From positions 345,451 to 409,450 of the forward strand of contig DASXKN010000029.1 in NCBI GenBank assembly GCA_036496805.1: a DNA stretch of 64,000 nt, read 5' to 3'. The notes beneath the pieces are model-generated. The model was given only the letters and a program-made list of their open reading frames with translations, searched no databases and was not told the DNA's origin. Source of the DNA: Lysobacteraceae bacterium. GTDB taxonomy: Bacteria > Pseudomonadota > Gammaproteobacteria > Xanthomonadales > Xanthomonadaceae. Positions 58,016 through 64,000 of this stretch are shown here, piece after piece (the stretch's first letter is position 1; every line of letters begins with the position of its first letter). The position numbers and the translations under genes are program-made.

Positions 58016-58104
58016 GACGTCATCCCCGCGAAGGCGGGGATCCACGTGCGCAGGAAGCCAGCGTGGATGACGTGGGTGGATCCCCGCCTTCGCGGGGATG
58101 ACGT
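58016..58104. repeat. REP/SMAG-like nested palindromic element
   Basis: Two perfect inverted arms (58017-58045 and 58075-58103), spacer 29 bp. Each arm contains the inner palindrome CCCCGCGAAGGCGGGG. Confidence 0.7.
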
Positions 58105-58138: not shown

Positions 58139-59464
58139 TCAGGCCTGCAGCTGCAGGGCTTCTTCGAGACTGGCGCGCAGCATGACCATCGCCTCGTCGA
58201 TCTGCGTGGTGGTCACGTTCAGCGGCGGCATGAAGCGGATCGTGCTGGCGCCGCAGGACAGCAGCAGCAGGCCGTTGTGGAAGGCGCGGTTGACCGTGGC
58301 GTCGCAGAGCGCGCGTGCGGGCGATCCTGCCTCGCCGCTTTCGACGAGTTCGATGCCGATCATCAGGCCCCTGCCGCGGACTTCGCCGATGCACGGGAAG
58401 TCGCGCTGCAGATCGCGCAGCCGCGCCATGAAATGCGCGCCTGCGCTCGCGGCGTTGTGCACGAAACCGTCGGCGACTAGATCGAGCGTCGCGTTCGCAG
58501 CCGCGCAGGCGATCGGGTTGCCGCCGTAGGTGTTGCCATGCGCACCGCGCTTCCATTGCGACATCAGCGATTTGCGCGCGACGACCGTACCGATCGGCAG
58601 CCCCGAGCCGAGCCCCTTGGCCAGGGTCATGATGTCGGGCGCGACGTCCCAGTGCTCGCAGGCGAACATCTTCCCGGTGCGACCGACGCCGGACTGCACT
58701 TCGTCGAAGATCAGCAGGATGCCGTGCTCGTCGCAGAGCGCGCGCAGGCCGGCGAGGAAGCCGTCCGGCGGGACGAGATAGCCGCCTTCGCCCTGGATCG
58801 GTTCGACCAGGATCGCCGCGACTTCGGCCGCAGGCACGCTGCGTTCGAACAGGGAGCGGATGTAGTCGAGCACGGCCTTGCCCTGGTCGGCTCCGGCAAA
58901 CAGCGGCCGATAGGGATTGGGGTAGGGCACATGGGTCACGCCGGGCATGGTCGGCGCGAAGCCGAGCTGCTGGGTGTACTTGCTCGAGGTGAACGACAGC
59001 GAGCCCATCGTGCGGCCGTGGAAGCCGCCGAGGAAGCCGATGAAGCGCGGCCGCCGGGTGATGTAGCGCGCGAGCTTGAGCGCGCCTTCGACGGCTTCGG
59101 TACCGGACTGGCAGAAGAAGCTCATCGCAGGTTCGCGCATCGGTGCAACGCGGGCGATGCGCTCGCCGAGGCCGACCATCTGCTCGTGCCAGTAGTCCGA
59201 GGAGATGTGCAGGAAATCGTCGGCGGCACGCTTCACCGCTGCGACCACGTCGGGATGGGCGTGGCCGGTCGAGCACACGGCGATGCCGGCGGCGAAGTCG
59301 AGAAAGCGGTTGCCGTCGACGTCCCAGACTTCGCTGCCGCGACCGCGGGACATGACGAAGGGGTAGTCGCGCGGATACGAGGGGGAGATGACCGCGGTGT
59401 CGCGGGCGATCATGGCCTGGGCCTTGGGGCCGGGGAGGTCGGTCTTGATGTGGTCGTTGTGCAT
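58139..59464 (-). CDS. class III PLP-dependent aminotransferase (GabT/omega-aminotransferase-like)
   Basis: Aminotransferase class III motifs DEVQSGVGRTGKMFACEHW...TLAKGLGSG. Confidence 0.85.
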   Translation of the reverse strand: MHNDHIKTDLPGPKAQAMIARDTAVISPSYPRDYPFVMSRGRGSEVWDVDGNRFLDFAAGIAVCSTGHAHPDVVAAVKRAADDFLHISSDYWHEQMVGLGERIARVAPMREPAMSFFCQSGTEAVEGALKLARYITRRPRFIGFLGGFHGRTMGSLSFTSSKYTQQLGFAPTMPGVTHVPYPNPYRPLFAGADQGKAVLDYIRSLFERSVPAAEVAAILVEPIQGEGGYLVPPDGFLAGLRALCDEHGILLIFDEVQSGVGRTGKMFACEHWDVAPDIMTLAKGLGSGLPIGTVVARKSLMSQWKRGAHGNTYGGNPIACAAANATLDLVADGFVHNAASAGAHFMARLRDLQRDFPCIGEVRGRGLMIGIELVESGEAGSPARALCDATVNRAFHNGLLLLSCGASTIRFMPPLNVTTTQIDEAMVMLRASLEEALQLQA

Positions 59465-60140
59465 GGATCACCTTCTTGTCGTCGTCATGCGGGCATTCGC
59501 GGCATTCGGGGTATTTCGAGCGGTCCCGATTGTTCCTGTGCTCGTCATCCCAGCATAAGCCGGGAGCGTTTCTCAACAGCGAAGCTGATCATCCATTTGA
59601 TCTTGCTCTTCGCACCCGCTCTTCGCACTCGCTCTTTGCACTTGTTCGTCATTCCCGCGAAGGCGGAAGCGTTTCACAACAGCGAAGCTGGTCAATCCAG
59701 TGACTTTGTTTTTTGGAAGCAACAAGAGCACAAGAGCAAGAGCGTTCCGCGCTTTCGCGCGGGTTACTTTCTCTTGACCTTCGGCCCATCCATGGGCCTC
59801 ACCTTCGCTACGCGAAGGCGCTGCGCGGTTCAGATCGCTCCTGCGATCTGTCGGGAGAAAGTAACCAAAGACCATTGCGCCGGCGTCGCCGCCGCGAAGA
59901 AGCCGCGTCGGTACCCTGCGCTCCTCGGAAAACGCGGGCCGGCCCGAACTCGCACATCCGACCGCCATGGATGGCGGAAATGCCGAAAATGCAGGAGCAA
60001 TTTTCGGCCATGTGCTCGGACATGCGGGCCTATTCCCCGCGTTTTCCTGCGGTGCTCGGCTCGCTTTACGGCGCAAGAACAAGTGGAGCAGAAGCGGTGG
60101 AGCAGAAGCGGTGGAGCAGAAGCAGTGAGGTGGAAGTGGG
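59465..60140. repeat. 676-bp repeat-rich non-coding region
   Basis: Two ~52-bp direct repeats (59544-59595 and 59648-59699). 3x GCTCTTCGCAC. 12-bp inverted repeat GGTTACTTTCTC/GAGAAAGTAACC (59767 and 59855) flanks palindromes GGCCCATCCATGGGCC and GATCGCTCCTGCGATC. 3x14-bp tandem GTGGAGCAGAAGCG (60083-60124). Contains a half-REP CATTCCCGCGAAGGCGG. No credible ORF. Confidence 0.6.
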
Positions 60141-60926
60141 TCAGGCGGGTATTTCAATTCTGCGGCTGTGGGCGGCCCTGGTGCGGGCGTTGAGGGCGCG
60201 GAGGGTTTCGAGTTCGGTGGCGGTGGGGACGGGGATCGTCTCGATATGGTCGGCGATCAGCAGGGGCCAGCCGACCTTGTCGCGGGCTTCCTCGATGCTT
60301 GCGCCGGGGAACAGGGCGACGAGCTGGAGTTCCTCGCTTTGCGGATGTGGGGCGAGCATGCCGAAGTCGGTGATCACGGCGCTCGGGCCGCCGCCGGTCG
60401 CACCGATGCGCTGGCGGGCGCCCGAGCCTTCGAGATAGCCGGCGCTGGTGCGGAAGTCGATGCGTTCGACGAAGCTGCGCCGGTTGGCGGCGAGCATCAC
60501 GAAGGTCTGCTTCGCGTGCGCGGCGATCTCGGGTGCGCCGCCGGCGCCCGGCAGGCGCACTTTCGGTGCGTCGTACGGCCCGACCACGGTGCTGTTGAGG
60601 TTGCCGTGGCGATCGATCTGCGCGGCGCCGAGGAAACCGACGTCGACGCGCCCGGCCTGCAGGTAGTGGCTGAAGATTTCCGGCAGCGGCACCACGCAGG
60701 ACGCGGTCAGCGCGAGTTCGCCGTCGCCGATCGACAGCGGCAACGCGTCGGGGCGCGTGCCGATCGTGCCGGACTCGTAGATCAGCACGATGTCGGGCGC
60801 GTGGGTGAGCCGTGCGAGGTTGCAGGCCGCGCTCGGCAGGCCGATGCCGACGAAGCAGACGCAGCGATCCCACAGCAGGCGCGCGGCAGCAATCGTCATC
60901 AGTTCCTCGCGCCGGAAATCGCTCAC
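60141..60926 (-). CDS. CoA-transferase subunit B (3-oxoacid/glutaconate CoA-transferase family), GTG start
   Basis: GAGGAGG SD upstream of the GTG at 60924-60926. Subunit-B sequence (GIGLPSAACNLA...ESG...). Confidence 0.75.
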   Translation of the reverse strand: MSDFRREELMTIAAARLLWDRCVCFVGIGLPSAACNLARLTHAPDIVLIYESGTIGTRPDALPLSIGDGELALTASCVVPLPEIFSHYLQAGRVDVGFLGAAQIDRHGNLNSTVVGPYDAPKVRLPGAGGAPEIAAHAKQTFVMLAANRRSFVERIDFRTSAGYLEGSGARQRIGATGGGPSAVITDFGMLAPHPQSEELQLVALFPGASIEEARDKVGWPLLIADHIETIPVPTATELETLRALNARTRAAHSRRIEIPA

Positions 60927-60978
60927 GCGGCCTCCTCGCGCAGCCCGGCGGGGAAGCCTGCGAAAGAAAGCATCGCGA

Positions 60979-61824
60979 TCACGCTGCCTCCGGGCGAAGG
61001 CTGCGCAGGAAGCCTGCATGGTCGCCGGTGGCGAGTACATGGCGTTCCATCCAGTTCGTGAAACCCTCGCGCGCGCGCGCAACCACGTCCCAGTGCAGGT
61101 AGAAGGCGTTGTCGCGCGCGTAGTGGCCCTGCGCGTAGGAAGGATAGGCGCCGCCGCGCACGTGCGCGACCGCGGTCACGACCCAGTGCGGCAGCACGAT
61201 CGCGTTCATCGCCGGCGGCAAGGCGTCGACGATCTCCTCGACGGTGACGATCAGCGTCTTCGCGGCGAACGCGGCTTCGCGCGCGGCGCCGACGATGCCG
61301 TGGATGGCGACGTTGCCGGCGCGGTCGGCGCGCTGCGCGTGCAGGATCGTCACGTCGGGATTGAGCGCCGGCACCGCCGCCAGCGTTTCGCCGGTGAACG
61401 GGCATTGCACGCCGCGGATGCGCGGGTTGTGCGCGGGCAGGTCGGTGCCGATGTAGCCACGCAGCACGCCGAACGGGAGTCGTGCGGCGCCGGCGCAGAA
61501 GGCGGCGGCCATGCCGGCGTGGCTGTGCTCGTCGAGCTCGAGCTTGCGCGGCCAGCCGTGCTCGACCGCGTCGCGGAGGCGATGCAGCGAACCCACGCCG
61601 GGATTGCCGCCCCAGGAGAACGTCAGCTTGCGCGCACAACCCATGCCGATCATCTGGTCGTAGACCAGGTCGGGCGTCATCCGGATCAGGTGCAGGTCGC
61701 GCCGACGCTGGCGGATGATCTCGTGGCCAGCCGCGAACGGGATCAGGTGGGTGAAGCCCTCCAGCGCGACGCTCGCACCATCCGGCACGAAGCGTTCGAT
61801 CGCGTCGGCGAGCGTCGTGATCAT
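60979..61824 (-). CDS. CoA-transferase subunit A
   Basis: Subunit-A-like sequence (ALEGFTHLIPFAAGHEIIRQ). ATGA overlap with the upstream ALDH gene. Confidence 0.7.
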   Translation of the reverse strand: MITTLADAIERFVPDGASVALEGFTHLIPFAAGHEIIRQRRRDLHLIRMTPDLVYDQMIGMGCARKLTFSWGGNPGVGSLHRLRDAVEHGWPRKLELDEHSHAGMAAAFCAGAARLPFGVLRGYIGTDLPAHNPRIRGVQCPFTGETLAAVPALNPDVTILHAQRADRAGNVAIHGIVGAAREAAFAAKTLIVTVEEIVDALPPAMNAIVLPHWVVTAVAHVRGGAYPSYAQGHYARDNAFYLHWDVVARAREGFTNWMERHVLATGDHAGFLRSLRPEAA

Positions 61825-63392
61825 CCCTCGACCACCGTGCGCGACTGTTCGCGCAGGTACTGCGCGAGGTAGTAGAACGAAGCGATCGCCTTGCCGGTCG
61901 AGCCCGAGCCTTTCCATCCGCCGAACGGCTGGTAACCGGGCCACGCGCCGGTGGTCGCGCCCTGCGGACGGTTGGCATAGGTCACGCCGGCCTCGATGTG
62001 CTCGTGGAACCAGGCCGTCTGCTCAACACTGCCGTAGAAGCCCGCGGTGAGTCCCATCGTGGTGGCGTTCGCCAGCCGCATCGCTTCGGCGTCGTCGCGG
62101 TAGCGGTGGAGCATCAGGATCGGCAGGAACATCTCGTGCTGCCACAGCGGATGGTCGAGCGGCGCTTCGGCGAGGGTCGGCTCGACGTACCAGCCGCGTG
62201 CGTAGTCGTCGCTCGCGATCGTTTCGCCGCCGGCGACCAGCTTCGCGCCGCCGCTGCGCAGGGCCTCGACGTGGCGGGCGAATTCGCCGTGGGCGTTCGC
62301 GTTCACCACCGGGCCGAGCCAGTGCTCGCGCCTGCGCGGATCGCCGATCGCGATCGCGCCGATCTGCTTGCGCAGGCGCTCGACCAGTGCGTCGGCCACG
62401 CTCTCGTGCACGTACAGCCGCGAGAGCGCGGAGCACTTCTGTCCGCCCATGCCGTAGGCCGAGCGCACGATGCCCGCGACGGCGCGGCCGAGGTCGGCCT
62501 GCGCGGTGACGATGCAGGGATTCTTGCCGCCCATCTCGGCGATGCACGGACGCGGGAAGTCGCCGCCGGCCATGTGCTGCATGATCCGGCGACCGACCAC
62601 GACCGAGCCGGTGAAGGTCACGCCCGCGGTCAGCGGATGGCGCACGAGTGCGTCGCCGACTTCGCGGCTCGATCCGGACAGGTAGTTGAAGACGCCGGGC
62701 GGAAGTTCCGCGTCGCGGACGCAGTCGGCGAGCAGGCGGCCGGCCCACGGTGTGTCGGTCGCGCCCTTCACGACCACCGTGTTGCCGGTCACCAGCGCGG
62801 CCGCGACCGGGCCGCCGGCGAGCGCGAGCGGGAAGTTGAACGGTGCGATCACCACCCACGCGCCGTAGGGACGCATCACGCTGGCGTTGCGCGAGACGAA
62901 GCCTTCGACCGGATCGTCCGGCAAGGCGTTCGCGTAGCCGGCGTGCTGCTCGAAGTCGTCCGCGTAGTGGCGGAAGAAATCGACCGTCTCCTGCGCTTCG
63001 GCGAGCGCCTCGACGCGGTTCTTGCCGACTTCCAGCACCAGCGCGGCGGCGATGTCGTAGACGCGATCCTCCATGATCTGCGCGACCCGGCGCAGCAGGC
63101 GCACGCGCTCGCCGACCGGCGTCGCGCGCCAGGCGGGGAAGGCTCGGTGCGCGGCCTGCATCGCCGCGTCGGCGTCGGCCGCGTCGGCGAGCGCGAAGTC
63201 GCCCAGGCGCAGGTCGCGATCGATCGGGCTGCGCCGGTCGGCGTGATGCAGCGCTTCGCGGTCGGCGCCGTCGATGAACAGCGCATGGCCCTGGTCCATC
63301 CCGGCTTCCACCCGCGCCAGCGCAGCCTCGAAGCCCTCGTGCATCGCCTCGGGCGGGTTGTACATCGTCGCGTAGGTGAGGCGGAAAGACAT
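61821..63392 (-). CDS. NAD(P)-dependent aldehyde dehydrogenase family protein (semialdehyde/P5C-dehydrogenase-like)
   Basis: ALDH catalytic motifs FTGS...G, EMGGKNP and the catalytic Cys (GQKCSA). Confidence 0.8.
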   Translation of the reverse strand: MSFRLTYATMYNPPEAMHEGFEAALARVEAGMDQGHALFIDGADREALHHADRRSPIDRDLRLGDFALADAADADAAMQAAHRAFPAWRATPVGERVRLLRRVAQIMEDRVYDIAAALVLEVGKNRVEALAEAQETVDFFRHYADDFEQHAGYANALPDDPVEGFVSRNASVMRPYGAWVVIAPFNFPLALAGGPVAAALVTGNTVVVKGATDTPWAGRLLADCVRDAELPPGVFNYLSGSSREVGDALVRHPLTAGVTFTGSVVVGRRIMQHMAGGDFPRPCIAEMGGKNPCIVTAQADLGRAVAGIVRSAYGMGGQKCSALSRLYVHESVADALVERLRKQIGAIAIGDPRRREHWLGPVVNANAHGEFARHVEALRSGGAKLVAGGETIASDDYARGWYVEPTLAEAPLDHPLWQHEMFLPILMLHRYRDDAEAMRLANATTMGLTAGFYGSVEQTAWFHEHIEAGVTYANRPQGATTGAWPGYQPFGGWKGSGSTGKAIASFYYLAQYLREQSRTVVEG

Positions 63393-63408
63393 CGTCACGG
63401 ACCTCGGA

Positions 63409-64000
63409 TCAGGGTGCGGAGAAATCGGCGGCCGGGAAAAACCGCGAGAGCAGGCGATCCAGCAGGACAAGCGCGTCGGCGAGTTCGGTCTCGCCGATCA
63501 CCAGCGGCGGCGCGAGCAGGATCAGGTTGCCGCGCGTCGCGAACGACACGCCTTCGGCCATCGCCGCATCGACGAGCGCCTTCAGCATCCTGGGCGTCTG
63601 CGGCCACGGCGCGGGCGGCTCGCGCGTCTTTCGATCCGCGACCAGTTCGATCGCCGCGAACAGTCCATGGCCGCCGCGCACGTCGCCGATGACCGGATGG
63701 CGCGCCTGCATGCGCAGCAACTCGTCGTGGAGCTGGTGGCCGAGCGTGCGCGAGCGTTCGATCAGATTCTCTTCTTCGTAGGCCTTTAGCGCAGCGACGC
63801 CCGCGGCGCAGCACAGCGGATGGCCGCAATAGGTGAGTCCCGCGTACAGCATCCGGTTCTCGATGCGTGCGGCGACTTCGCGGCTGAGCACGACCGCGCC
63901 CAGCGGCAGCGCCGCGCCGGTCAGGCCCTTGGCGAGCGTCATCATGTCCGGCCGCGCAGCCTCGCCCTGGCGCTGCCAGGCGAACCATTGCCCGCAGCGC
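63409..64000 (-). CDS. class III aminotransferase, 3' portion (5' end beyond window)
   Basis: C-terminal aminotransferase class III sequence continues in frame to the window edge (...PDMMTLAKGLTGAALPLGAV...). Confidence 0.7.
   Translation of the reverse strand, partial: RCGQWFAWQRQGEAARPDMMTLAKGLTGAALPLGAVVLSREVAARIENRMLYAGLTYCGHPLCCAAGVAALKAYEEENLIERSRTLGHQLHDELLRMQARHPVIGDVRGGHGLFAAIELVADRKTREPPAPWPQTPRMLKALVDAAMAEGVSFATRGNLILLAPPLVIGETELADALVLLDRLLSRFFPAADFSAP

What the first reader, a model, noticed from the sequence alone, without database searches (positions are those of the whole stretch)
59465..60140. 676-bp repeat-dense non-coding insert splitting an aminotransferase/ALDH/CoA-transferase operon
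Direct 52-bp repeats, a triple 11-mer, 12-bp terminal-style inverted repeats about 90 bp apart enclosing two short palindromes, a T-run, a 3x14-bp tandem array and a half-REP are all packed between two minus-strand genes. This looks like a MITE or decayed mobile-element scar, or a structured ncRNA or regulatory platform, rather than an ordinary intergenic spacer.
Basis: seen in the sequence. Interest (0 to 1): 0.6.

Follow-up and report, generated by a model that had tools for sequence, protein, structure and literature searches.

The report
Pile-up of structured repeats splitting an operon
The 676-bp gap between two co-transcribed metabolic genes is not a spacer or a gene but a nested stack of non-coding hairpin-forming repeats that also occur elsewhere, one of which carries a small, unusually conserved three-stem module that no database names.

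Summary
The window is a Lysobacterales-like metagenome contig. On its minus strand lies the operon AT1–ALDH–CoA-transferase A/B–AT2. In 65 relatives the CoA-B→AT2 gap has a median of 22 bp, and 60 of the 65 are ≤49 bp. Here it is 676 bp, so the DNA was inserted.

Its parts:
- Two CGTC-type REP derivatives, each with a 26–27-nt insert in the 3' arm.
- 13- and 14-nt tandem arrays.
- A ~340-bp palindromic mosaic element, "X".

X recurs at 78–92% identity in at least 9 other metagenomic loci, next to unrelated genes. Inside X is a 56-nt module: two hairpins with loops AUGGAU and GCAGGAGC, usually closed by a third stem. This module is 90–98% identical in more than 40 unrelated loci and 86% identical in Halomonas. 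Its stems carry compensatory changes.

There is no Rfam match, no coding signal, no sigma-70-type promoter, no minus-strand terminator, and no recurrent neighbouring gene among the called flanking ORFs (which were not screened for transposase domains).

Best reading (0.72): a BIME/NIME-like pile-up of non-autonomous repeats, passively co-transcribed with the operon. Minority reading: X and its core form a functional RNA module, possibly an RsmA/CsrA binder. Ordinary in kind, but the family appears undescribed.

The parts
58139..59464 (-). AT2: class-III aminotransferase gene (441 aa), immediately downstream of the insert in the direction of transcription. It is intact.
   Evidence: Pfam PF00202, E = 6e-127. 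Full-length matches at 70-87% identity to orthologues, with no frameshift.
60141..60926 (-). CoA-transferase subunit B gene (261 aa). Its stop codon at 60141-60143 borders the insert.
   Evidence: Pfam PF01144. JGI gene call at L001 8539-9324.
59465..59542 (-). AT2 5' leader with a Shine-Dalgarno sequence (GAAGGTGAT, about 59467-59475). The first ~20 nt are shared with the nearest relative, L002.
   Evidence: Sequence. Pairwise alignment with the L002 spacer.
59543..59595 (+). CGTC-type REP derivative, copy 1: CGTC-AT-CCCAGC-ATAA-GCCGGG, then a 26-nt insert (59565-59590), then AT-CCA. It is orthologous to the single copy in the L002 spacer.
   Evidence: REP features as defined in PMC3733652.
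59605..59642 (.). Tandem array of the 13-nt unit GCTCTTCGCACYC, x2.9. It is an imperfect inverted partner of the AAGAGC-type runs to its right.
   Evidence: TRF score 62, 92% matches. Inverted repeats I3 and I7. Pairs with the 14-mer array in the minimum-free-energy fold.
59647..59699 (+). CGTC-type REP derivative, copy 2: CGTC-AT-TCCCGC-GAAG-GCGG, then a 27-nt insert (59667-59693), then AAT-CCA. It is 78% identical to copy 1 and 85% identical to a copy in Pseudoxanthomonas MAG L014.
59700..59743 (.). Linker holding the T6 run (59709-59714) and an AAGAGC-type microsatellite (ACAAGAGC x2.1 at 59722-59738).
   Evidence: The same type of A/G-rich 'AAGAGC' run flanks X copies in L082-L089 and L129-L131.
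59744..60082 (+). Element X: a ~340-bp non-coding palindromic mosaic repeat. It recurs at 78-92% identity in L082/L086, L083, L084/L085, L087, L088, L089, L129, L130 and L131, next to unrelated genes.
   Evidence: BLAST and alignments. Consensus fold of 63 pairs, 11 of them with compensatory changes among 7 copies. No AT2 or CoA-B homologues at those loci.
59762..59866 (+). Module A of X: a 17-bp stem (GGTTACTTTCTCTTGAC / GTCGGGAGAAAGTAACC) whose loop carries a 71-nt nested insert (59779-59849). The insert has hairpins with loops ATCCAT and CTCCTG. X copies L084, L087, L088 and L089 have the plain hairpin without the insert.
   Evidence: fold -69.5 kcal/mol, z = -6.8. Weak reverse-strand hit of the core model at 59733-59805, E = 0.11.
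59927..60047 (+). Module B of X: a 12-bp perfect inverted repeat (GGAAAACGCGGG / CCCGCGTTTTCC) closing a multibranch structure that holds the conserved core.
   Evidence: z = -4.3 on the plus strand, -6.2 on the minus strand. The outer stem covaries between X copies: 7 of its 12 pairs show changes on both sides.
59952..60015 (+). Conserved three-stem core:
- P1: GCACAT (59952-57) pairs with ATGTGC (60010-15).
- H1: CCGCC-ATGGAT-GGCGG (59962-77).
- Linker: AAAT.
- H2: GCCGAAAAT-GCAGGAGCA-ATTTTCGGC (59982-60008).
   Evidence: 90-98% identity in 44 metagenome loci with unrelated flanks. 86% identity in Halomonas. Covariance-model hit of 86 bits. Compensatory changes in 4 pairs, reached by 0 of 500 shuffles. 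P1 pairing beats mismatched-flank controls, p = 5e-5.
60083..60127 (.). Tandem array of the 14-nt unit GTGGAGCAGAAGCG, x3.2, forming the variable 'tail' of the X composite. The equivalent tail in L082/L086 is a 15-nt array that differs in copy number (3 against 5 units) between two samples of one locus.
58017..58104 (.). Head-to-head dimer of canonical CGTC-1-type REPs (CGTC-AT-CCCCGC-GAAG-GCGGGG-AT-CCA) in the next gap, between AT2 and the peptidase gene. It belongs to the same REP family as the two derivatives in the spacer.
   Evidence: Fold -77 kcal/mol, z = -9.6.

Best explanation
The 676 bp are inserted, non-coding, interspersed repeat DNA. They form a BIME/NIME-like mosaic that built up in an intercistronic gap that was originally ~20-30 bp long.

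Components:
(i) Two copies of a CGTC-tagged REP, each with a 26-27-nt insert in its 3' arm. One copy is inherited, because L002 shares it.
(ii) One copy of an undescribed ~340-bp palindromic element, X. Its hairpin loops carry further nested hairpin modules, among them a 56-nt three-stem core that is widely conserved.
(iii) 13- and 14-nt tandem arrays and AAGAGC-type microsatellites, produced by local slippage at the element borders.

Shown here:
- The DNA is an insertion relative to orthologous operons.
- Homologous copies exist in unrelated contexts.
- Modules are nested, with presence/absence differences between copies.
- The tail arrays are hypervariable.
- There is no coding or known-RNA signal.

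Inferred:
- The pieces arrived by transposition-like or recombination-mediated spread of non-autonomous elements. This took at least two steps, with a 440-bp difference from L002.
- The stack is read through as an untranslated, heavily folded segment of the operon mRNA.
- Its effect on the operon is at most generic (RNA processing, stability or partial polarity), as described for REP/BIME elements. AT2 remains intact.
For: Insertion:
- In 65 relatives with the same gene order, the CoA-B→AT2 gap has a median of 22 bp, and 60 of 65 are ≤49 bp. The window has 676 bp.
- L002, the nearest relative (87% AT2 identity), shares the leader, REP copy 1 and the X tail plus array. It lacks one contiguous 440-bp block, 59616-60055.

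Dispersal:
- X is 78-92% identical at at least 9 other loci next to an ABC-F gene, a hybrid histidine kinase, a GNAT, a DUF3108 gene and a HAD gene.
- L082 and L083 share 505 bp at 95.8% identity but have different flanks.
- The core occurs in 44 metagenome loci and in Halomonas.
- The REP derivative also occurs in L014.
- L069 carries a core-bearing element of another subfamily in the same gap, in the opposite orientation.

Nesting: the X hairpin occurs with and without the 71-nt insert, and a 68-nt insert is present only in some copies.

Slippage: the tail array has 3 units in L082 and 5 in L086, which are the same locus in two samples.

Non-coding:
- No Pfam hit for the spacer ORFs.
- Copies differ by 1-2-nt indels.
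- Only 2 and 4 pseudo-ORF relatives exist among 5.8 billion protein clusters.

Other negatives:
- No Rfam family at E ≤ 1.
- No sigma-70-like promoter and no minus-strand terminator.
- The called genes flanking core copies show no recurrent family beyond duplicate or orthologous loci; they were not screened for transposase domains.

REP identity: the CGTC tag, AT-first 8-bp stem, 4-nt loop and CCA tail match the definition in PMC3733652.
Against: - No terminal inverted repeats at the composite's ends, no target-site duplication and no cognate transposase were found, so the mechanism of mobility is not shown.
- Copy number within this genome is unknown. There is 1 X, 1 core and 4 REP units in the 64 kb, and the core is rare in 1.5 Mb of related genomes. 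That rarity is unlike classical high-copy REPs or MITEs.
- Loops are conserved while stems covary.
- G·U pairs favour one strand.
- X lies 3' of a co-oriented gene in 6 of 6 other readable loci.
- These last three features are what a selected RNA structure would show. Pure junk DNA would not.
- Transcription of the spacer was not measured.
Confidence: 0.72

Rival explanations
1. X and its core form a functional structured RNA module. It would normally be carried in the 3' untranslated region of a gene and would present two GGA-containing hairpin loops: CAUGGAUG, which fits the RsmA/CsrA 'CANGGANG' site, and GCAGGAGC, which resembles the CsrB 'CAGGA(N)G' repeat. It would bind RsmA/CsrA or another loop-specific factor. 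The window copy would be a displaced, antisense-inserted member. On the operon mRNA strand, only the two module-A hairpins would display GGA loops.
For: - Both loops are kept while both stems are replaced in L067, and partly replaced in Halomonas.
- Other hairpins with different stems share the same loops, whereas control hexamers give 0-1 such hairpins each.
- Compensatory changes occur in H1, H2, P1 and four X helices.
- G·U outnumbers A·C 6 to 1-2 on the core-sense strand, and X has two invariant G·U pairs.
- X is sense-oriented just 3' of a co-oriented gene in 6 of 6 other loci.
- Core copies mostly lie at the 3' ends of genes.
- The core is 100% conserved at the orthologous site downstream of ssrA in several taxa, while the neighbouring hairpins vary.
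- L088 has a 42-nt x7 array of CAUGGAUG/CACGGAUG hairpins on the same strand next to X.
- RsmA sponges outside the genus Xanthomonas are not known in this order. RsmU is reported as limited to Xanthomonas (PMC7694677).
Against: - No promoter or terminator defines a transcript.
- There are only two GGA loops per unit.
- The complementary loops (AUCCAU, CUCCUG) are equally common on the same strand.
- In this window the element is antisense to the operon.
- The metagenome retrieval pattern fixed part of H1 and one arm of each stem, which inflates apparent conservation.
- The orientation counts are small and rest partly on heuristic ORF calls.
- No binding or expression data exist.
Confidence: 0.17
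2. The spacer is a dedicated cis-regulatory region for AT2. It would supply its own promoter, an attenuator or a riboswitch that uncouples AT2 from the upstream genes.
For: - It lies directly upstream of AT2.
- It is highly structured.
- AT2 is a paralogue of AT1 in the same operon (33% identity) and could need separate control.
Against: - It is absent from 60 of 65 orthologous operons, where AT2 follows CoA-B within ≤49 bp.
- There is no sigma-70-like promoter and no minus-strand terminator.
- There is no Rfam family.
- The same elements sit next to unrelated genes.
- L069 has a related element in the opposite orientation.
Confidence: 0.05
3. The region arose purely by local duplication and replication slippage of an ordinary spacer, with no imported DNA.
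For: - Tandem 13- and 14-nt arrays are present.
- There is a 73-nt direct duplication.
- The equivalent array varies in copy number between samples.
Against: About 390 bp (59723-60110) is homologous as a unit to elements in unrelated loci. The REP units belong to a described superfamily.
Confidence: 0.02
4. The region is a decayed protein-coding gene, or a small gene such as the 53-aa and 100-aa ORFs called by JGI.
For: ORFs of 194 aa (minus strand) and 53 aa (plus strand) span it. JGI called two of them.
Against: - No Pfam hit.
- The relatives are only pseudo-ORFs on the same repeat.
- Family copies differ by 1-2-nt indels that break every frame.
- Conservation follows the hairpins, not the codons.
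- GC is 10-15 points below that of the flanking genes.
Confidence: 0.02
5. The region is a metagenome assembly artefact: a chimeric join or a collapsed or expanded repeat.
For: Palindromic and tandem repeats are prone to misassembly. The source is a metagenome contig.
Against: - Both flanks are syntenic with 65 genomes.
- L002, an independent assembly, shares both ends of the spacer.
- The internal architecture of X is reproduced in at least 9 independent assemblies.
Confidence: 0.02

Closest known systems
CGTC-tagged REPs (CGTC-1 family of Di Nocera et al. 2013, PMC3733652; includes the Neisseria dRS3 repeat)
   Same: The units at 58018 and 58103 have a CGTC tag, an 8-bp stem starting with AT, a 4-nt loop and a CCA tail, and they form a head-to-head dimer. 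The two spacer units keep the tag, the 5' arm, the loop and the tail. No dedicated transposase is known for the family. None was apparent here either (homology clustering only).
   Different: - The spacer copies have a 26-28-nt insert at a fixed point of the 3' arm, so they are no longer simple palindromes.
- They lie in direct orientation, not inverted.
- The paper reports the family mainly in Alphaproteobacteria. The host here is a Lysobacterales-like gammaproteobacterium.
- Genome copy number is unknown.
Bacterial interspersed mosaic elements (E. coli BIMEs) and Neisseria intergenic mosaic elements (NIMEs)
   Same: They are intergenic or intercistronic clusters that combine REP-type palindromes with other conserved short modules. 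They lie at the 3' ends of genes or between co-transcribed genes, are transcribed as part of the mRNA, and have generic effects on RNA stability or termination. The BIME description is in PMC2817692. The NIME comparison rests on my own knowledge.
   Different: - There is no regular alternation of REP orientation.
- The modules here are much larger (X is ~340 bp).
- The modules are nested inside each other's hairpin loops.
- The key module is defined by conserved loops, not by conserved stems.
MITEs and REPINs (for example the REP doublets of Pseudomonas, PMC3116915; reviewed in PMC3184786)
   Same: They are small, non-coding, palindromic and dispersed. They show presence/absence polymorphism at orthologous sites and sit in gene-flanking positions that do not disrupt promoters.
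   Different: - No terminal inverted repeats at the element ends, no target-site duplication and no RAYT or IS partner were identified.
- Density is low: 1 core in 64 kb, 2 per 1.8 Mb in Halomonas.
- Conservation across orders is very high (86-98%), which is unusual for MITE families.
CsrB/RsmY/RsmZ/RsmU-type RsmA/CsrA-binding RNAs
   Same: GGA motifs are displayed in hairpin loops (CAUGGAUG, GCAGGAGC), 25 nt apart. There is an adjacent multi-hairpin array in L088. X usually lies in a 3'-UTR position, like RsmU (PMC7694677).
   Different: - There is no sequence or Rfam similarity.
- There are only two GGA loops per unit.
- No transcript is defined.
- The copies are dispersed and mobile-looking.
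- Binding is untested.

Membership tests
CGTC-tagged REP (PMC3733652) | Terminal CGTC (or TGTC/CCTC) tetranucleotide at one end | tested here: met
   CGTC at 58018, 58103 (reverse strand), 59543 and 59647. Definition read.
CGTC-tagged REP (PMC3733652) | Perfect short palindrome: 8-9-bp stem with A-T in the first and second positions, 4-5-nt loop, short CCA tail | tested here: not met
   Met by the dimer at 58017-58104 (AT-CCCCGC / GAAG / GCGGGG-AT / CCA). The two spacer units keep the AT, the 5' arm, the 4-nt loop and the CCA tail, but their 3' arm is interrupted by 26-27 nt. They are therefore derivatives, not intact members.
CGTC-tagged REP (PMC3733652) | Many copies per genome, mostly extragenic, often as head-to-head dimers | not testable with these tools
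   Only 64 kb of the genome is available. It holds 4 units, all extragenic, including one head-to-head dimer.
BIME (E. coli type) | REPs in regularly alternating orientation, separated by a small set of conserved linker motifs | tested here: not met
   The two REP derivatives are in the same orientation, 104 bp apart. The mosaic composition as such is present.
MITE | Terminal inverted repeats at the ends of the mobile unit | tested here: inconclusive
   The inverted repeats of 12 and 17 nt and an 8-bp closing stem (TTGCGCCG/CGGCGCAA) are internal to X. The composite shared by L082 and L083 ends in a TGTC REP on one side and a tandem array on the other. The 13-mer and 14-mer arrays are only imperfect inverted partners.
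MITE | Target-site duplication flanking the insertion, seen by comparison of filled and empty sites | tested here: inconclusive
   The only partial 'empty' comparison (L002) differs by a 440-bp block that does not coincide with element borders. Only TCG microhomology lies at the junction.
MITE | No coding capacity, with multiple dispersed copies | tested here: met
   No Pfam hit, and frame-breaking indels between copies. X occurs at 10 or more loci and the core at more than 40. These copies are spread across metagenomes, not counted within one genome.
MITE / REPIN | A related autonomous element or RAYT transposase with the same ends | tested here: not met
   The neighbouring genes at about 45 loci are unrelated to each other. 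The flanking genes checked by Pfam are an ABC-F protein, a histidine kinase, a GNAT, a DUF3108 protein and a HAD protein. The rest of the host genome could not be searched.
Any Rfam 15 RNA family | A covariance-model match | tested here: not met
   No hit at E ≤ 1 in window 58900-60700. Only spurious eukaryotic hits in 14 family loci.
Hammerhead ribozyme (type I topology) | Three-way junction with the CUGANGA and GAAA cores and a UH cleavage site | tested here: not met
   The topology and the CUGA…RAAU strands are similar, but G8 and A9 are missing (CUGA-C-stem). Stem III does not close with A-U followed by H (reading). No Rfam hit.
CsrA/RsmA-sequestering sRNA | Several GGA motifs in hairpin loops of a defined transcript that binds RsmA/CsrA | tested here: inconclusive
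   There are two GGA loops per core on one strand and two in module A on the other. L088 holds an array of seven or more. No transcript ends can be predicted. Binding cannot be tested here.

The most novel reading that the evidence does not exclude
X and its 56-nt core are not junk. They would be a horizontally spreading, structured RNA module of Gammaproteobacteria (Lysobacterales, Halomonas, marine and soil taxa).

The module is usually carried in the sense orientation in 3' UTRs and next to tRNA or tmRNA genes. Its two invariant GGA-bearing loops (CAUGGAUG and GCAGGAGC), on covarying stems, would be binding sites for RsmA/CsrA or another loop-reading protein. That would make it a mobile way of wiring transcripts into, or titrating, a global post-transcriptional regulator. 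Arrays such as the one in L088 would be expanded sponge forms.
Probability: 0.12. Interest if true: 0.7.

Novelty: new variant of a known kind. Interest (0 to 1): 0.4.

Why it matters
For this operon it matters little. The insert is a lineage-specific passenger, and AT2 is intact.

The wider value is the catalogue entry. X is an undescribed interspersed element whose 56-nt three-stem core is kept at 86-98% identity across distant Gammaproteobacteria. The core has conserved loops, covarying stems, a bias toward gene 3' ends and toward tRNA/tmRNA neighbourhoods, and insertion inside other hairpins. Classical REPs and MITEs do not show that combination.

If the core proves to be read by a protein (RsmA/CsrA, a recombinase or a Y1 transposase), it would do one of two things. 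It would reveal a new mobile regulatory RNA module, or it would supply the missing mobilisation logic for the CGTC-type repeats that lack a known transposase.

It is also a practical warning. Gene callers place 'hypothetical proteins' on these repeats.

Tried and rejected
- Rfam, E ≤ 1 on the region and gathering/E-value thresholds on 34 family loci: nothing relevant. One search did reveal tmRNA and tRNA neighbours.
- Promoter and terminator scan: no promoter; two weak terminator-like hairpins on the plus strand only, no more than in shuffles.
- Coding hypothesis: Pfam on the 194-aa and 241-aa spacer ORFs gave nothing. Two protein-database searches returned only pseudo-ORFs on the same repeat.
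- Viral contigs: two exact-pattern scans for the core found 0 matches. A phage att or cos origin has no support.
- Plasmid collection: only Halomonas sp. PA16-9, two places in one record.
- Literature search for the sequences CCATGGATGGCGG, GAAAAGTAACC and related strings: only unrelated primers.
- Search for a recurrent neighbouring gene (a transposase or RAYT): an all-against-all BLASTP of the called flanking ORFs found only duplicate or orthologous loci. No domain scan for transposases was run on those ORFs.
- Hammerhead-like reading of the three-way junction: rejected by inspection, because G8 and A9 are absent.
- tRNA-like reading: rejected, because there is no T-loop or D-loop. ARAGORN finds no tRNA in the window.
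- One fixed P1 register could not be drawn on the alignment, because the register shifts between subfamilies. I therefore tested P1 by duplex energy against mismatched flanks.
- The 'conserved loop' hairpins are not a general feature of Lysobacterales DNA. They are rare in 1.5 Mb of related loci.
Full report
**Context.** The window is part of a 595-kb JGI metagenome contig (sample 3300036801). The AT2 protein is at most 87% identical to proteins of Lysobacteraceae, Dyella, Rhodanobacter and Pseudoxanthomonas genomes. The host is therefore an undescribed Lysobacterales-like gammaproteobacterium. On the minus strand the gene order is:
- a divergent IclR regulator;
- class-III aminotransferase AT1;
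- aldehyde dehydrogenase;
- CoA-transferase subunits A and B;
- the 676-bp gap;
- a second class-III aminotransferase, AT2, 33% identical to AT1;
- two secreted S9/Tricorn-like peptidases.

**The observation.**
- A 54-73-nt direct repeat (76-78% identity).
- A perfect 12-bp inverted repeat 97 nt apart, enclosing two hairpins.
- A T6 run.
- A 14-nt unit x3.2.
- REP-like sequence.
- In addition, an unlisted 17-nt inverted repeat enclosing 71 nt.

The features exceed chance. Diagnostic words occur 2-3 times against 0.00-0.04 expected in shuffles. The whole spacer folds with z = -5.7 and its two large modules with z = -4.3 to -6.8. GC falls from about 0.69 to 0.54-0.59.

**It is an insertion into an operon.** I fetched 80 loci encoding close AT2 relatives. 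Sixty-five of them keep CoA-B directly upstream of AT2.
- In those 65 the gap has a median of 22 bp, and 60 are ≤49 bp.
- The exceptions are 61, 72, 124, 220 (L002) and 358 bp (L069).
- The window's 676 bp is the largest.
- L002, the nearest relative, shares the AT2 leader, one REP derivative and the distal ~80 bp. It lacks one contiguous 440-bp block, 59616-60055, with only TCG microhomology at the junction.
- The shared distal piece is the end of element X (below). L002 most likely lost the block by deletion, although gain in the window lineage is not excluded.
- L069 carries, in the same gap, a related element of a different subfamily in the opposite orientation.
- The gap is therefore a permissive site that was hit more than once.

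**What the pieces are.**

*(1) REP derivatives.* Positions 59543-59595 and 59647-59699 start with CGTC-AT, a 6-nt arm and a 4-nt loop, and they end with AT-CCA. These are the features that define CGTC-tagged REPs (PMC3733652, read).
- Canonical units of the same family form a perfect head-to-head dimer in the next gap, at 58017-58104.
- Both spacer units carry a 26-27-nt insert at the same point of the 3' arm.
- The orthologous unit in L002 and an unrelated unit in Pseudoxanthomonas MAG L014 carry it too.
- These four are the only CGTC units in the 64 kb.

*(2) Element X (about 59744-60082).* I translated the long spurious minus-strand ORF and searched the protein collection. Two pseudo-proteins came back. 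Their contigs align to window 59723-60110 as one unit.
- A degenerate-pattern scan of the metagenome collection and a second pseudo-ORF search added more copies.
- X is now seen at L082 (=L086), L083, L084 (=L085), L087, L088, L089, L129, L130 and L131. Identity is 78-92% over about 235 nt.
- None of these loci encodes AT2, CoA-B or the peptidase.
- The neighbours are an ABC-F protein, a hybrid histidine kinase, a GNAT, a DUF3108 protein and a HAD hydrolase.
- L082 and L083 share 505 bp at 95.8% identity with different flanks.
- X is a long imperfect palindrome. RNAalifold on 7 copies gives 63 pairs, 11 with compensatory double changes.
- Copies differ by whole nested modules. The GGTTACTTT…AAAGTAACC hairpin is plain in L084, L087, L088 and L089, but holds a 71-nt two-hairpin insert in the window, L082, L083 and L131. 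A 68-nt insert follows it in L082, L083, L130 and L131.

*(3) Arrays.* A/G-rich 'AAGAGC' runs and short tandem arrays sit at the borders of X in all copies, but with different units. The 15-nt array of one locus has 3 units in one sample and 5 in another. This is ordinary slippage.

**The conserved core.** All 44 metagenome loci share a stretch of about 50 nt with window 59955-60010 at 90-98% identity. In most of them the flanks are completely different. The loci include a low-GC marine TARA contig. A 1.83-Mb Halomonas replicon has the core at 86% identity.

The core consists of:
- H1: CCGCC-ATGGAT-GGCGG;
- a linker, RAAT;
- H2: GCCGAAAAT-GCAGGAGCA-ATTTTCGGC.

Evidence that the structure is maintained:
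- Counting pairs on 37 distinct sequences gives 93% paired cells and 4 pairs with changes on both sides. None of 500 shuffles reaches this, and slid controls give 0-2 such pairs.
- The flanks usually pair as a third stem of quite different sequence. Examples are GCACAT/ATGTGC, GCGCA/TGCGC, GGCA/TGCC, CTCTCCCC/GGGGAGAG, GGCGACAT/ATGTCGCC and TTTTCC/GGAAAA. The duplex energy has a median of -8.1 against -4.9 kcal/mol for mismatched flanks (p = 5e-5). The 'ACCCTCATCTGA' subfamily lacks this stem.
- A covariance model built from the core finds, in 1.6 Mb of related genome loci, only the window, L069 (split by a 47-nt nested insert), Halomonas and L067. It also gives a weak reverse-strand hit in module A of the window spacer.
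- In L067 both stems are replaced and both loops are kept.
- Other hairpins in these loci carry the same loops on different stems, while control hexamers give 0-1 such hairpins each.
- Such hairpins are rare in ordinary Lysobacterales DNA.

Caveat on this evidence: the retrieval patterns fixed CATGGA of the H1 loop and one arm of each stem, apart from codon-wobble positions. Conservation of H1 in the metagenome set is therefore partly circular. The H2 loop, the opposite arms, Halomonas, L069 and L067 are independent of the pattern.

**Where the core and X sit.**
- By a heuristic ORF call, cores lie mostly at the 3' ends of genes. Among neighbours within 300 nt, the upstream neighbour is co-oriented in 14 cases against 7, and the downstream neighbour is convergent in 14 against 3. 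Divergent promoter regions are almost never used.
- Seven independent loci of about 36 have a tRNA or tmRNA gene within 400 nt.
- L067 has the diverged core inside tandem partial tRNA-Ser copies.
- The neighbouring ORFs show no recurrent family; I did not scan them for transposase domains.
- X lies just 3' of a co-oriented gene in 6 of 6 other loci with a readable upstream gene.
- The window copy is the exception. Its sense strand is antisense to the operon.

**What it is not.**
- Not a known RNA family.
- Not a gene: there is no Pfam hit, and copies differ by frame-breaking indels.
- Not phage-derived, as far as exact-pattern scans show.
- Not a hammerhead, despite the CUGA…RAAU three-way junction, because G8 and A9 are absent.
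- Not a regulator specific to AT2, because it is absent from nearly all orthologous operons and no promoter or terminator is predicted.
- Not an assembly artefact, because independent assemblies reproduce both the ends of the spacer and the architecture of X.

**Mechanism I commit to (confidence about 0.72).** The spacer is a stack of non-autonomous structured repeats.
- The stack comprises the CGTC-REP derivatives, the X composite with its nested modules, and the slippage arrays.
- The repeats accumulated in a tolerant intercistronic site.
- The stack is read through with the operon.
- It acts at most generically on mRNA processing or stability, as BIMEs and REPs do.
- Insertion, dispersal, nesting and array instability are shown.
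- The transposition mechanism, co-transcription and the effect on expression are inferred.

**Minority reading (about 0.15-0.2 for some RNA-level function; about 0.12 for the specific RsmA/CsrA version).**
- The conserved loops on covarying stems, the excess of G·U over A·C on one strand (6 against 1-2), two invariant G·U pairs in X and the orientation bias are the signature of a selected RNA.
- The two loops fit RsmA/CsrA hairpin sites. This consensus comes from my own knowledge of the CsrA/RsmE literature. GGA motifs as RsmA sites are cited in PMC7694677.
- L088 has a 42-nt x7 array of such hairpins next to X.

**Novelty and score.** The kind is known: intergenic mosaic palindromic repeats. 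The REP part belongs to a described superfamily. X and the three-stem core match nothing in Rfam or in the literature searches I could run. They differ from classical REPs and MITEs in four ways:
- loops are conserved rather than stems;
- modules are nested inside hairpin loops and REP arms;
- copy density is low while conservation across orders is very high;
- copies are enriched near tRNA and tmRNA genes.

I therefore rate it a new variant of a known kind, with interest 0.4.

Noticed in passing
window 58017-58104: A perfect head-to-head dimer of canonical CGTC-1-type REPs fills most of the 144-bp gap between the AT2 stop and the peptidase gene (fold -77 kcal/mol, z = -9.6). AT2 is thus bracketed by REP-family repeats on both sides. 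These, with the two spacer units, are the only CGTC units in the 64 kb.
   Followed up: partly
L088 1375-1685 (metagenome contig Ga0068869_100105807): A 42-nt tandem array x7.2 lies directly beside an X element, downstream of a GNAT gene. On the X-sense strand every unit forms hairpins uuGCAUGGAUGCaa and UGCA(U/C)(C/G)GAUGCA. That gives seven or more CsrA/RsmA-type 'CANGGANG' loops. No Rfam match.
   Followed up: partly
L067 20450-21128 (Proteobacteria MAG Bin_66_1): About three tandem 201-bp repeats. Each consists of the 5' half of a tRNA-Ser followed by a diverged core (stems replaced, loops AUGGAU and GCAGGAGC kept) and part of the anticodon and variable arm. They lie just upstream of an intact tRNA-Ser(tga).
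   Followed up: partly
L098, L103, L106, L109 (tmRNA); L092, L107, L111, L115, L122, L125 (tRNAs): Core copies are strongly enriched within 100-400 nt of tRNA or tmRNA genes. Downstream of ssrA the core is identical in several taxa. The adjacent hairpin keeps its loop (TTCTGCGAA) but changes its stem.
   Followed up: partly
L069 9627-9986 (Gammaproteobacteria MAG MFD04967): The same CoA-B/AT2 gap independently holds a 358-bp insert of another subfamily, in the opposite orientation. Its core is split between H1 and H2 by a 47-nt nested module with ATCCAT and CTCCTG hairpins.
   Followed up: yes
L082 vs L086 (same locus, two JGI samples): The 15-nt tail array GATCTTTCGGCCTCC next to X has 3 exact units in one sample and 5 in the other. 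The rest of the locus is 96% identical.
   Followed up: yes
L128 = Halomonas sp. PA16-9 NZ_CP040452.1 1716106-1716164: A cultivated organism carries the core between two same-strand genes. It is 86% identical, H2 has compensatory changes, and P1 is TTTTCC/GGAAAA. The 1.83-Mb replicon has two places with the core. This strain is a possible experimental handle.
   Followed up: partly
window 59573-59875 (-) and 59967-60128 (+): JGI called 100-aa and 53-aa 'hypothetical proteins' on the repeat. Their few database relatives are equally spurious ORFs on other X copies.
   Followed up: yes
window about 58139-64000 and beyond (L001 4728-11326): The operon holds two paralogous class-III aminotransferases (33% identical) around an ALDH and a two-subunit CoA-transferase. 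A divergent IclR regulator and a thiolase lie upstream. This order is conserved in about 60 Lysobacterales and Steroidobacteraceae genomes. The pathway was not assigned.
   Followed up: no
L083 100-400; L084, L129 and L130 just upstream of X: Further repeat words travel with X. One is a second, more canonical element in inverted orientation (GGTCACTTTTCGTTG…CAACGAAAAGGTAACC). Another is a GTTCGTGGTGAGCTTGTCGAACCA hairpin between the upstream gene and X.
   Followed up: no
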